The position numbers and the translations under genes were made by a program. DNA of 64,000 bases from a virus. Below the pieces are notes generated by a model. It made no database searches and had not been told where the DNA came from. It was given only the letters and a program-made list of their open reading frames with translations. Location: positions 1 to 64,000 of the IMG/VR virus record IMGVR_UViG_3300037483_001148; one strand, given 5' to 3'. Positions 47,999-48,664 of this stretch are shown here, piece by piece. Position 1 is the first letter of the stretch; each line of letters starts with the position of its first letter.

Positions 47999-48065
47999 TC
48001 GTTCAACGGCAAGGGCGAACAAACACCAACAGCAAAAGTTTTTTAGCTCTTACTGCACAGAACGT
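47999..48065 (+). ncRNA. Y-RNA-like module 1 (no tRNA domain)
   Basis: CGTTC/GAACG stem, GGCAAGGGC/GCTCTTACT stem, ACAAAC. Confidence 0.65.
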
Positions 48066-48173
48066 TACAGGATGGCGCGTTGAAAGGTAGGATTGACCGA
48101 CTACCACAAATGCTGGATAAGAATGGTCGTTAAACATTAAACCCCAGTCACATCCGAAACCTTAAAAATCATT

Positions 48174-48311
48174 AACCGTTCGACTCTGGCAGCTTACAAA
48201 CAGTATGGGTTCGATTCCCATATTCCAAGCTTCTTGGAATTAGCCTAATGGTAGGGCAACAGTCTTTCAAAAACTGTCTAAAAAATGCAGCTTTCAGTAC
48301 ATGGAACGGTT
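48174..48311 (+). ncRNA. Y-RNA-like module 2 carrying a circularly permuted tRNA body
   Basis: AACCGTTC/GAACGGTT stem enclosing, in order, T arm, loop-closed acceptor stem, D arm and anticodon arm. Confidence 0.8.
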
Positions 48312-48320
48312 GATACATAA

Positions 48321-48392
48321 TGTGGGGTAGAGCAGAGGTAGCTCGTCACGCTCATAACGTGAAGGTCGTGAGTTCGATTCTCACCCCCGCTA
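48321..48392 (+). tRNA. tRNA-Met(CAT), initiator-like
   Basis: TGTGGGG/CCCCGCT acceptor with 1:72 mismatch, GAGC/GCTC D stem, CTCATAA loop, TTCGATT T loop; lacks the three G-C anticodon pairs; no encoded CCA. Confidence 0.88.
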
Positions 48393-48396
48393 CTAT

Positions 48397-48535
48397 GGCC
48401 TCCTAGCTAAAAATGCAATTGAAAGTAACCTAATCACAGAACGAGTTTCTCGTTCAACCTGGGGTACTTACAAACAATGGACAAAGCGTCAGTCTTAGGA
48501 ACTGAAGAATCCTGGTTCGATTCCAGGGGAGGCCA
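48397..48535 (+). ncRNA. tRNA body (anticodon TAG) with Y-RNA-like module 3 inserted in the D arm
   Basis: GGCCTCC/GGAGGCC acceptor, TCAGT-CTTAGGA-ACTGA, CCTGG-TTCGATT-CCAGG; ~67-nt insert at 48409-48475 closed by GAACGAG-ttt-CTCGTTC. Confidence 0.8.
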
Positions 48536-48540
48536 CTAAT

Positions 48541-48664
48541 TCGTTCAACTCTAATGGCGAACAAACTTATGGTGCAGAGGTAGCACAACAAATTCATACT
48601 TTGTCGGTCGCAAGTTCGATTCTTGCTAAGTTTACCAAAAAACCGCCAATAGAACACAGAACGA
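48541..48664 (+). ncRNA. Y-RNA-like module 4 enclosing a complete tRNA(CAT) cloverleaf (48563-48637)
   Basis: TCGTTC/GAACGA and TCTAATGGCG/CGCCAATAGA stems around AAACTTA...TAAGTTT-ACCA. Confidence 0.8.

What the first reader, a model, noticed from the sequence alone, without database searches (positions are those of the whole stretch)
47999..48664. Four copies of a covarying RNA handle, three grafted onto tRNA bodies at three different positions
Seen: each unit has a CGTTC/GAACG stem, an internal loop (RAC opposite ACA), a 9-10 bp stem with one mismatch, and then ACAAAC. The inner stem sequence differs while pairing is kept: GGCAAGGGC/GCTCTTACT, CTGGCAGCT/AGCTTTCAG, TGGGGTACTT/AAGTAACCTA, TCTAATGGCG/CGCCAATAGA. 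Cargo differs per unit: none (unit 1); tRNA opened at the variable loop (unit 2); handle inserted in the D arm (unit 3); handle on the acceptor ends (unit 4). The array begins at the predicted start of a TTGACA-17-TACACT promoter and ends at a terminator just before the TROVE-like gene. Known: YrlA-type Y RNAs join a Ro-binding stem to a tRNA-like domain that lacks a normal anticodon arm. Here the anticodon arms are retained and the attachment point varies. Inference: a modular handle-plus-bait RNA repertoire that presents different faces of tRNA.
Basis: partly seen in the sequence, partly recalled or inferred. Interest (0 to 1): 0.93.

Follow-up and report, generated by a model that had tools for sequence, protein, structure and literature searches.

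The report
Phage Ro60 partner RNAs carrying tRNAs
A sediment phage encodes, just upstream of its own Ro60-like ring protein, four small RNAs that share one docking stem joined to nothing or to tRNA bodies at three different points, a layout of Ro60 partner ("Y") RNA that I did not find in the papers I could search.

Summary
Four copies of one stem module lie at 48000-48663. Each has CGTTC/GAACG, a small internal loop, an 11-nt variable strand and then ACAAAC. The cognate variable strands pair at 35 of 44 positions; shuffles give 18.9 +/- 2.8, and none of 100,000 reached 35.

The cargo differs by unit:
- Unit 1 has none.
- Unit 2 is a permuted tRNA-like body joined at the variable loop.
- Unit 3 is a tRNA-Leu(UAG)-like cloverleaf with the module inside-out in its D-loop.
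- Unit 4 is a complete tRNA(CAU)+CCA enclosed by the module.

Pfam does not call the adjacent 492-aa protein TROVE. Its predicted structure, both whole and as the N-terminal domain alone, matches only Ro60/Rsr over its full length.

Three distant relatives of the gene (29-36% identity) carry the same kind of array, each with its own handle sequence. Four others carry one long hairpin.

Best reading: these are Y-RNA-type partner RNAs of a divergent phage Ro60. This is a new variant of a known kind (YrlA, Yrn1, phage Yrl RNAs). Binding, expression and function are untested.

Unchecked notes of this scan report similar tRNA/Y chimeras in other phage genomes.

The parts
47963..47991 (+). sigma-70-type promoter TTGACA-17-TACACT; the predicted start lies at about 47998-48000, the first base of unit 1
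   Evidence: 10 of 12 matches; equally strong promoters precede the arrays in L005, L006 and L007 (sequence)
48000..48064 (+). Unit 1: handle only. 5' strand 48000-48024, 3' strand 48045-48064, 20-nt A/U-rich loop
   Evidence: (z -2.3)
48065..48176 (+). Spacer with no significant structure; it contains CGTTAAAC, one base away from the handle's CGTTCAAC
   Evidence: z -0.8; sequence
48177..48308 (+). Unit 2: handle (48177-48201 / 48289-48308) closing a circularly permuted tRNA-like body. T arm 48205-48221, 7-bp acceptor hairpin 48222-48240, D arm 48243-48257, anticodon-like arm with a 9-nt loop 48259-48277. The handle sits at the variable-loop position
   Evidence: (z -2.9); partial Rfam YrlA match 48204-48257, 22.5 bits
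48321..48393 (+). Free-standing tRNA(CAU) with no handle and a U1.U72 mismatch
   Evidence: 61.9 bits; 78-84% identical to tRNA-Met genes of large phages
48397..48535 (+). Unit 3: tRNA-Leu(UAG)-like cloverleaf with free acceptor ends. The handle is inserted inside-out in the D-loop: 3' strand 48423-48443, cap loop 48444-48450, 5' strand 48451-48475
   Evidence: (z -4.0)
48542..48663 (+). Unit 4: handle (48542-48566 / 48644-48663) formed by the leader and trailer of a complete tRNA(CAU) with encoded CCA (48563-48637). ACAAAC overlaps the first four acceptor bases
   Evidence: (65.8 bits)
48679..48707 (+). Intrinsic terminator-like hairpin followed by a T run, closing the RNA array
48736..50214 (+). 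492-aa Ro60/Rsr-type protein: a helical TROVE-like ring domain plus a vWA domain with a DxSxS...T...D MIDAS motif. It lies beyond the reach of Pfam TROVE

Best explanation
The 0.7-kb stretch is one transcription unit (promoter to terminator). It would yield four Y-RNA-type partner RNAs and one ordinary tRNA for the phage's own Ro60-like ring protein, which is encoded immediately downstream.

The shared handle consists of the CGUUC/GAACG stem, the RAC/NCAYR internal loop and the ACAAAC linker. I take it to be the docking site for that protein (inferred).

The 9-10-bp stem between these conserved pieces differs in every unit while keeping its pairing. One likely benefit is that each 5' strand finds only its own 3' strand within the polycistronic transcript (inferred).

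The cargo is a tRNA body joined to the distal end of the handle at three structurally permissive sites: the variable loop, the D-loop 5' of G18G19, and the acceptor ends. The tRNA L-shape can therefore persist with the ring held at a different place each time (inferred).

By analogy with the Ro60-Y RNA-PNPase complex and with YrlA, the tRNA modules would recruit or occupy host proteins that recognise tRNA. Candidates are RNase P, modification enzymes, nucleases and tRNA-targeting defence enzymes. Which ones is unknown.

Unit 2, with its 7-bp closed acceptor stem, is predicted to be nicked by RNase P as M. smegmatis YrlA is.
For: 1. Handle structure and covariation within one genome.

2. The neighbouring protein has the Ro60 fold.
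- Whole model, Foldseek: the top 12 hits are all Ro60/Rsr/TROVE, best E = 2e-10.
- Whole model, VIA: Rsr Z 16.8 over 426 residues; human Ro60 Z 16.4.
- N-terminal 300 residues alone against 48,161 chains: the only three hits with Z >= 8 are Rsr (11.1), Xenopus Ro60 (10.8) and Thermus phage phiLo Ro60 (9.0). The next hit is Z 7.0 over 88 residues.
- The MIDAS residues are invariant in 13 homologues.

3. Synteny.
- Three relatives at 29-36% protein identity (L005, L006, L007) have arrays upstream on the same strand. Each contains handle-only, inside-out-in-tRNA and handle-around-tRNA units, with a lineage-specific handle and an A/C-rich linker.
- Four relatives at 36-40% identity (L008-L011) have one long hairpin. 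In three of them (L009-L011) it has a CGUUCU/AGAACG-type base. Eight of its 32 pairs show compensatory changes.

4. The T arm, closed acceptor and D arm of unit 2 align to Rfam YrlA.

5. Published precedent.
- Y RNAs lie within 4 kb of Ro60 on the same strand, occur in phages, come several to a locus and are co-transcribed with a tRNA. M. smegmatis YrlA is cut by RNase P and receives CCA (PMC4201824).
- Thermus phage Ro60 binds two upstream Y-like RNAs and host PNPase (PMC12135203).
- Bas63 gp130, a Ro60 look-alike next to tRNA genes, counters a defence system, and its authors suggest that some of those tRNA genes are Y RNAs (bioRxiv 10.1101/2024.10.10.617714).
Against: - Nothing here shows expression, processing or binding.
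- The published Rsr-binding motif GNCGAAN0-1G is absent from the array.
- Neither Rfam YrlA nor Y_RNA reaches its threshold.
- The protein is not recognised by Pfam TROVE. At the sequence level only its vWA part matches Ro60.
- The structural models are of moderate confidence (pLDDT 80, pTM 0.52-0.63). Foldseek on the N-terminal domain alone gave no E <= 0.001.
- A terminator separates the array from the gene, so co-regulation is not assured.
- Units 3 and 4 and the free tRNA look like usable tRNAs, which a pure mimic would not need to be.
Confidence: 0.72

Rival explanations
1. Caged or stored tRNAs. Units 3 and 4, and perhaps unit 2, are real phage tRNAs. Their maturation (RNase P, 3' trimming, CCA exposure) is held back or protected by the handle with the Ro60-like ring bound to it. 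They would be released when host tRNAs are depleted or cleaved. The ring would be a chaperone or gatekeeper for tRNA supply, not a tether to other enzymes.
For: - Unit 4 is a well-formed tRNA (65.8 bits) with encoded CCA. Its leader and trailer make the handle.
- Handle-around-tRNA units with ordinary 7-nt anticodon loops recur: L005 has two, L007 has one, and L006 has one tRNA-like unit.
- Ro60 is known to bind misfolded or precursor RNAs through their 3' tails (PMC12135203, introduction).
Against: - Unit 1, L007 unit C, L005 unit D and the hairpins of L008-L011 carry no tRNA at all.
- Unit 2 has a sealed acceptor and a 9-nt loop.
- Removing the handle from unit 3 would need cutting and rejoining. 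No RNA ligase, RtcB or splicing endonuclease is found in the 100-kb record.
Confidence: 0.15
2. Intron-like or permuted tRNA genes unrelated to Ro60. On this view the handle is a processing signal, comparable to the bulge-helix-bulge motif of archaeal and algal tRNA introns, permuted tRNA genes and rRNA processing stems. It would be cut out and the ends joined to give normal tRNAs.
For: - In all three cargo types, removing the handle leaves tRNA parts in an order that could be repaired into a tRNA.
- ARAGORN calls tRNA-Leu(UAG) after the excision.
- Permuted genes and introns at non-canonical sites are known for tRNAs (established knowledge of archaeal and Cyanidioschyzon tRNA genes).
Against: - The motif is a 3 x 5 internal loop between two stems, not two 3-nt bulges around a 4-bp helix.
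- Handle-only units and single hairpins exist beside the same protein family.
- No EndA, RtcB or Rnl-type ligase is found in the record (the record is about 80% complete).
- After un-permuting, unit 2 is still not called a tRNA.
- The handle sequence changes from lineage to lineage along with the Ro60-like protein.
Confidence: 0.08
3. Decaying tRNA cluster. On this view the repeats are scars of duplication and recombination among phage tRNA genes and have no function of their own.
For: - Phage tRNA clusters are common.
- The spacer at 48065-48176 looks unstructured and holds a near-copy of the 5' motif.
Against: - Pairing is kept through near-complete sequence turnover of the variable stem.
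- Promoter and terminator are strong.
- The same architecture occurs in relatives with only 29-36% protein identity.
Confidence: 0.03

Closest known systems
YrlA (Rfam RF02553) with Rsr in Salmonella, M. smegmatis and mycobacteriophages (Chen et al. 2014, PMC4201824; Wang et al. 2018, bioRxiv 10.1101/312249)
   Same: - It is encoded next to and on the same strand as a Ro60 orthologue.
- A stem formed by the 5' and 3' ends is joined to a tRNA-like domain.
- Unit 2 has the YrlA order: T arm, closed acceptor hairpin, D arm.
- A 7-bp acceptor hairpin is present, as in the RNase P-cleaved M. smegmatis YrlA.
- There are several Y RNAs per locus.
   Different: - No unit reaches the Rfam cut-off, and the GNCGAA motif is absent.
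- YrlA has no anticodon loop and its Rsr stem continues the anticodon stem. Here the handle leaves from the variable loop, the D-loop or the acceptor ends, and the anticodon arms are kept.
- Units 3 and 4 have free or CCA-bearing acceptor ends.
- In unit 3 the handle is inside-out.
Deinococcus radiodurans Yrn1/Yrn2 with Rsr and PNPase (PMC4201824)
   Same: - The array lies upstream of the Ro60 gene.
- It is made as a polycistronic precursor that includes a genuine tRNA.
- Both strands of the binding helix are recognisable.
- Yrn1 has an anticodon-like arm and a different orientation of the tRNA-like parts. Yrn2 is a plain hairpin, like unit 1.
   Different: - The tRNA-like part of Yrn1 is partial: no full D arm and a 6-nt loop.
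- No case is described of a complete cloverleaf carrying the stem.
Thermus phage phiLo Ro60 with Yrl1/Yrl2 (PMC12135203; PDB 9KOP, 9L5Y)
   Same: - A phage-encoded Ro60 has Y-like RNAs directly upstream.
- Its structure is the third-best match to the N-terminal domain here (Z 9.0).
   Different: - Yrl1 and Yrl2 are stem-bulge-stem RNAs with a CGAA motif and no tRNA body.
- The proteins share about 12-16% identity.
Escherichia phage Bas63 gp130 (bioRxiv 10.1101/2024.10.10.617714)
   Same: - A Ro60 structural look-alike in a phage lies directly beside tRNA genes.
- Its authors suggest that some of those genes may be Y RNAs.
- It gives a phenotype: it counters the ppl defence system.
   Different: - No RNA architecture is described there.
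- tblastn of the 492-aa protein against the phage collection returned only one uncultured-phage record.
- I could not retrieve the Bas63 record to compare it.
Permuted and intron-bearing tRNA genes processed at bulge-helix-bulge motifs (archaea, Cyanidioschyzon)
   Same: - tRNA parts are in permuted order (unit 2).
- An insertion lies at a non-canonical site (unit 3).
- The leader and trailer form a helix (unit 4).
   Different: - The motif geometry differs.
- No splicing machinery is found in the record.
- The element also stands alone without a tRNA, and it travels with a Ro60-type gene.

Membership tests
YrlA (Rfam RF02553) | Score at or above the curated gathering threshold (69 bits) | tested here: not met
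   Best match is 22.5 bits at 48204-48257, covering model positions 30-81 only. There is no hit at the gathering threshold.
YrlA (Rfam RF02553) | GNCGAAN0-1G motif near the 5' end (proposed Rsr contact; PMC4201824) | tested here: not met
   A regex over 47995-48670 finds none. CGAA occurs inside GGCGAACAAAC in units 1 and 4 only.
YrlA (Rfam RF02553) | T arm, closed acceptor hairpin, D arm in this order, with tRNA tertiary-contact bases | tested here: met
   Met in unit 2 only. U8, A14, G18G19 and a possible A15:U48 pair can be read from the sequence.
YrlA (Rfam RF02553) | Rsr-binding stem continues the anticodon stem; no anticodon loop | tested here: not met
   Unit 2 keeps a separate 5-bp hairpin with a 9-nt loop, and the handle leaves from the variable-loop position.
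Y RNA in the broad sense (Ro60 partner RNA) | Encoded within about 4 kb of a Ro60 orthologue and on the same strand | tested here: met
   The array ends 72 nt before the start codon. The same holds in L005-L011.
Y RNA in the broad sense (Ro60 partner RNA) | Stem with an internal loop or bulge carrying conserved bases, formed by distant strands | tested here: met
   CGUUCRA resembles GGUCCGA in 4-5 of 7 positions; that resemblance is a lead, not a test.
Y RNA in the broad sense (Ro60 partner RNA) | Bound and stabilised by Ro60 in vivo | not testable with these tools
   This needs RIP or EMSA. The complex-prediction tool takes no RNA.
Metazoan Y_RNA (Rfam RF00019) | Any match to the covariance model | tested here: not met
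   Not among the matches at E <= 10 in 47900-48760.
Ro60/Rsr (TROVE + vWA) for the 492-aa protein | Pfam TROVE PF05731 above its cut-off | tested here: not met
   The control genomes do match the family.
Ro60/Rsr (TROVE + vWA) for the 492-aa protein | Helical ring domain followed by a vWA domain with MIDAS, superposable on solved Ro60 structures | tested here: met
   (Z 16.8 for the whole model; Z 11.1, 10.8 and 9.0 for the N-terminal domain alone, with only Ro60 chains at Z >= 8). DxSxS, T and D are invariant.
Canonical tRNA (Rfam RF00005) | Score at or above 29 bits on the uninterrupted sequence | tested here: met
   Met for the unit 4 core (65.8 bits) and the free tRNA (61.9 bits). Not met for unit 3 as encoded (26.8 bits, with a wrong 5' strand) or for unit 2 (15.3 bits).
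BHB-type tRNA intron or permuted tRNA gene | Two 3-nt bulges separated by a 4-bp helix at the junction, plus a splicing endonuclease and a ligase | tested here: not met
   The loop is 3 x 5 between 5-bp and 9-10-bp stems. PF01974, PF01139 and PF09414 are absent from the record, which is about 80% complete.

The most novel reading that the evidence does not exclude
Phage Ro60-like rings use a repertoire of handle-tRNA chimeras as adaptors. Each chimera would hold a genuine tRNA shape (Met/Ile-type CAU, Leu UAG and others in relatives) at a different angle to the ring, and so capture, decoy or redirect a different host tRNA-recognising enzyme. tRNA-cleaving defence nucleases could be among these. 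The whole would form an RNA-programmed counter-defence or RNA-surveillance device. It may be coupled to the conserved ubiquitin-like/E1 genes next door.
Probability: 0.25. Interest if true: 0.9.

Novelty: new variant of a known kind. Interest (0 to 1): 0.7.

Why it matters
What the tRNA-like domain of bacterial Y RNAs is for has been an open question since 2014. Here the tRNA part is not a partial mimic. It is a set of whole tRNA bodies, with anticodon arms and in one case a CCA end, each joined to the same docking stem at a different site.

Three things make this informative:
- The design recurs in distant phages.
- The docking stem changes sequence in step with the protein.
- The protein family is so diverged that Pfam misses it.

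This yields defined RNAs and mutants for testing what a Ro60 ring does with a tRNA shape. It also bears on the proposal that Y RNAs arose from tRNA transcripts. Finally, it warns annotators that some "tRNA genes with introns" or "pseudo-tRNAs" next to vWA proteins in phages are probably Ro60 partner RNAs.

Tried and rejected
The DNA around the closest homologues (P0002-P0006, 53-61% identity) could therefore not be read, and the covariation test across close relatives could not be made.
- Pattern scans of IMG/VR with the window's handle and with the L007 and L005 handles gave only single matches per contig. The one exception was L005's own contig. They are uninformative, because the handle sequences are lineage-specific.
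- The protein-guided scan of genome contigs found no relative. A second viral scan found no new locus.
- tblastn against the phage collection found one distant Ro-like gene, in a 595-kb uncultured phage. I did not analyse it further.
- Sequencing runs: no RNA holder is listed. The only holder is the probable source metagenome.
- phmmer of the protein against PDB sequences found nothing.
- Foldseek on the N-terminal domain alone gave no E <= 0.001. The exhaustive VIA search did find Ro60.
- ARAGORN does not call unit 2 a tRNA after un-permuting it.
- The spacer at 48065-48176 was tested as a fifth RNA. Its fold is no better than that of shuffles.
- My guess at the Bas63 accession was wrong: MZ501111 is another BASEL phage. 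I dropped it.
- Two reviews on bacterial Y RNAs (PMC10870794, PMC6047535) are not held.
- No covariance model was built, because the two strands of a handle cannot be joined by reference.
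Full report
**Setting.** The window is the first 64 kb of a 100,045-bp IMG/VR virus record (linear, about 80% complete, 40% G+C) from a sediment metagenome. The genes around the finding are short, co-oriented and often overlapping, as in phages.

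**The observation.**
- CGTTCRAC-N11-ACAAAC occurs exactly four times, all on the + strand, at 48000, 48177, 48451 and 48542. This pattern occurs nowhere else in the record, and its reversed control gives no match. The bare 8-mer CGTTCRAC has one further copy, on the minus strand at 95470.
- Four partner strands of the form N13-NCAYR-GAACG end at 48064, 48308, 48443 and 48663.
- The 11-nt variable strands share only 1-7 of 11 bases between units. Each pairs in register with its own partner at 8-9 of 11 positions. The total is 35 of 44, against 18.9 +/- 2.8 for shuffled partners; none of 100,000 shuffles reached 35.
- Non-cognate combinations are weaker in register (2-7 of 11).
- Free-energy folding with no constraints recovers all four handles together with the tRNA arms between them. 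The z-scores are -2.1 to -4.0. The 112-nt spacer after unit 1 folds no better than shuffles.
- A 10-of-12 sigma-70 promoter ends 8 nt before unit 1, and a terminator-like hairpin follows unit 4.
- No + strand ORF of 60 aa or more lies between 47940 and 48736.

**Anatomy of the units.**
- Unit 1 (48000-48064) is the handle closed by a 20-nt loop.
- Unit 2 (48177-48308) is the handle closing a permuted tRNA-like body. In order it has a T arm, a 7-bp acceptor hairpin, UA, a D arm with GG, and a 5-bp hairpin with a 9-nt loop. The handle therefore occupies the place of a long variable arm. Rfam's YrlA model aligns the T-acceptor-D part at 22.5 bits, far below its 69-bit cut-off.
- A free tRNA(CAU) follows at 48321-48393 (61.9 bits).
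- Unit 3 (48397-48535) has free acceptor ends, a canonical anticodon arm (UAG) and a T arm. Its D-loop holds a 66-nt block in which the handle is inside-out: 3' strand, then a 7-nt cap on the GAACG/CGTTC stem, then 5' strand, then ACAAAC. Removing 48411-48476 leaves a cloverleaf that ARAGORN calls tRNA-Leu(UAG). The insertion lies 5' of the D-loop GG.
- Unit 4 (48542-48663) is a complete tRNA(CAU) with an encoded CCA (65.8 bits). Its leader and trailer form the handle.
- In every unit the cargo is attached at the same end of the handle, beyond the variable stem and the ACAAAC linker.

**The neighbouring protein.**
- Pfam sees only a vWA domain in the 492-aa ORF at 48736-50214, and PHROGs gives a weak 'RNA-binding protein' hit. 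TROVE is not detected in the whole record.
- An AlphaFold2 model built from nine homologues has pLDDT 80. By Foldseek its 12 best matches are all Ro60/Rsr/TROVE chains aligned over 470-526 columns, with E down to 2e-10.
- VIA-align gives D. radiodurans Rsr Z 16.8 (426 residues, rmsd 5.2) and human Ro60 Z 16.4.
- A vWA domain alone could carry such scores, so I folded residues 1-300 separately (pLDDT 80) and searched 48,161 representative chains without Foldseek. The only three hits at Z >= 8 are Rsr (11.1, 265 aligned), Xenopus Ro60 (10.8) and Thermus phage phiLo Ro60 (9.0). The next hit has Z 7.0 over 88 residues. Foldseek on this domain alone was not significant.
- The MIDAS residues are invariant in 13 homologues.
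- I conclude that this is a strongly diverged Ro60.

**Relatives.** The protein has few relatives. I could read DNA for seven related loci of this protein clade.
- L005, L006 and L007 (29-36% identity by tblastn) each have, directly upstream and on the same strand, a promoter-to-terminator array of four or so units. Folding shows the same three designs:
  - handle-only or handle around a non-tRNA fold (L007 unit C, L005 unit D);
  - an inside-out handle within a tRNA-like body that has free acceptor ends (L007 A and B, L005 A, L006 A and C);
  - a handle around a tRNA (L007 D with UCG; L005 B with UUA and C with AAG; L006 D).
- The handle sequence is specific to each lineage but nearly uniform within a genome. 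An A/C-rich linker (ACAAAC, AAACAAAC, AUACAUAC, CACAUAA) follows the 5' strand in all of them.
- L008-L011 (36-40% identity) have a single long hairpin instead. In L009-L011 its base is of the CGUUCU/AGAACG type seen in the window. Eight of its 32 pairs change on both sides.
- A ThiF-type E1 gene lies downstream in the window, L005, L006 and L011.
- The overall pattern is conserved loops and base stem, a free variable stem, and turnover in step with the protein. This is what a protein-recognised RNA module would show. It is an inference, not a measurement.

**Comparison with what is known.**
- Chen et al. 2014 (PMC4201824) established several points. Bacterial and phage Y RNAs lie within 4 kb of Ro60 on the same strand. 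There are often several per locus. YrlA joins an Rsr-binding region to a T arm, closed acceptor and D arm. M. smegmatis YrlA, with a 7-bp acceptor stem, is cut by RNase P and receives CCA while staying bound. Yrn1 has an anticodon-like arm and a different orientation. Yrn2, tRNA-Asp and Yrn1 are made as one precursor.
[quoted passage not shown] It also discusses an origin from dimeric tRNA transcripts.
- Thermus phage phiLo Ro60 binds two upstream Y-like RNAs and host PNPase (PMC12135203).
- A phage-genetics preprint found that Bas63 gp130, a Ro60 look-alike beside tRNA genes, counters a defence system. It suggested that some of those tRNA genes may be Y RNAs (10.1101/2024.10.10.617714).
- The kind is therefore known. 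What I did not find in four literature searches is any of the following:
  - a complete cloverleaf carrying the Ro-type stem;
  - an inside-out insertion in a D-loop;
  - a CCA-bearing tRNA enclosed by the stem;
  - one locus combining several attachment points.
- The units fail the membership tests for Rfam YrlA and Y_RNA and lack the GNCGAA motif. I therefore file them as Y-RNA-type by context and architecture, not as YrlA members.

**Mechanism.**
- Shown: the structures, the fold of the protein and the conserved synteny.
- Inferred: the handle docks the ring; the variable stems keep the units from mispairing in the precursor; the tRNA bodies keep their L-shape because the handle leaves from permissive sites; and the RNPs engage tRNA-recognising host factors.
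- The main rival on function is that units 3 and 4 are real tRNAs whose maturation the ring gates.
- An intron or permuted-gene reading is disfavoured for three reasons. Handle-only units exist. The loop geometry differs. The record has no RtcB, Rnl-type ligase, splicing endonuclease or CCA-adding enzyme. The last point is weak evidence, because the record is incomplete.

**Earlier notes of this scan.** Unchecked AI notes report comparable tRNA/Y-RNA chimeras beside Ro60-like genes in at least 24 other phage genomes. They also report a ubiquitin-like/E1 cassette around this locus. I used them as leads only. No look-alike DNA of this stretch is on record elsewhere in the scan.

**Verdict.** It is a new variant of a known kind. 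All functional steps are still to be tested.

Noticed in passing
window 48321-48393: A free-standing tRNA(CAU) lies inside the array and has a U1.U72 mismatch at the top of the acceptor stem. Its D-loop and T-loop are identical to those of the unit 4 tRNA(CAU). Whether it is Met, initiator-like or Ile2-type is open.
   Followed up: partly
window 55980-56085: A tRNA-like sequence has a GAGCGAG/CTCGCTC acceptor and a perfect GGTTCGATTCC T arm, about 70 nt after tRNA-Ile(GAU). Neither ARAGORN nor Rfam calls it. Its middle part is too long for a normal anticodon arm.
   Followed up: partly
window 47599-47940 and 50353-52673; L005 7072-7584; L006 6113-6694; L011 6505-7083: A short ThiF-type E1 gene lies a few genes downstream of the Ro60-like gene in the window and in three relatives. 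The window also has a C2H2 zinc-finger protein just upstream. L011 adds a NADAR-domain protein. The Ro60-like gene, its RNAs and an E1 gene seem to travel together.
   Followed up: partly
L005 2481-2555: The tRNA enclosed by a handle in this relative has anticodon UUA, which ARAGORN labels 'tRNA-Stop'. That would be an ochre-suppressor-type anticodon.
   Followed up: no
window 48128-48140: The unstructured spacer contains GGTCGTTAAACA. Its CGTTAAAC is one base away from the handle's CGTTCAAC, and it has no GAACG partner. It may be the remnant of a lost unit.
   Followed up: no
window 48000-48007 and the T arms at 48208 and 48514: The handle's 5' motif CGUUCRAC resembles the 5' half of a T arm (GGUUCGAUU). 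T arms are also the only one-mismatch matches to the vertebrate Ro-binding GGUCCGA in these arrays. This fits the idea that the docking motif derives from tRNA, but it is only a resemblance.
   Followed up: no
L131 (LR756511.1) 1790-2010: A 595-kb uncultured phage has a gene 26% identical to the Ro60-like gene. About 1 kb upstream lie a tRNA-Thr(UGU) and a tRNA-like sequence with a roughly 30-nt insertion in its anticodon region.
   Followed up: no
window 43799-44395: A 198-aa ORF matches only the first about 30 and the last about 60 positions of Mg-chelatase ChlI-type AAA+ proteins. It looks like a protein with its core deleted.
   Followed up: no
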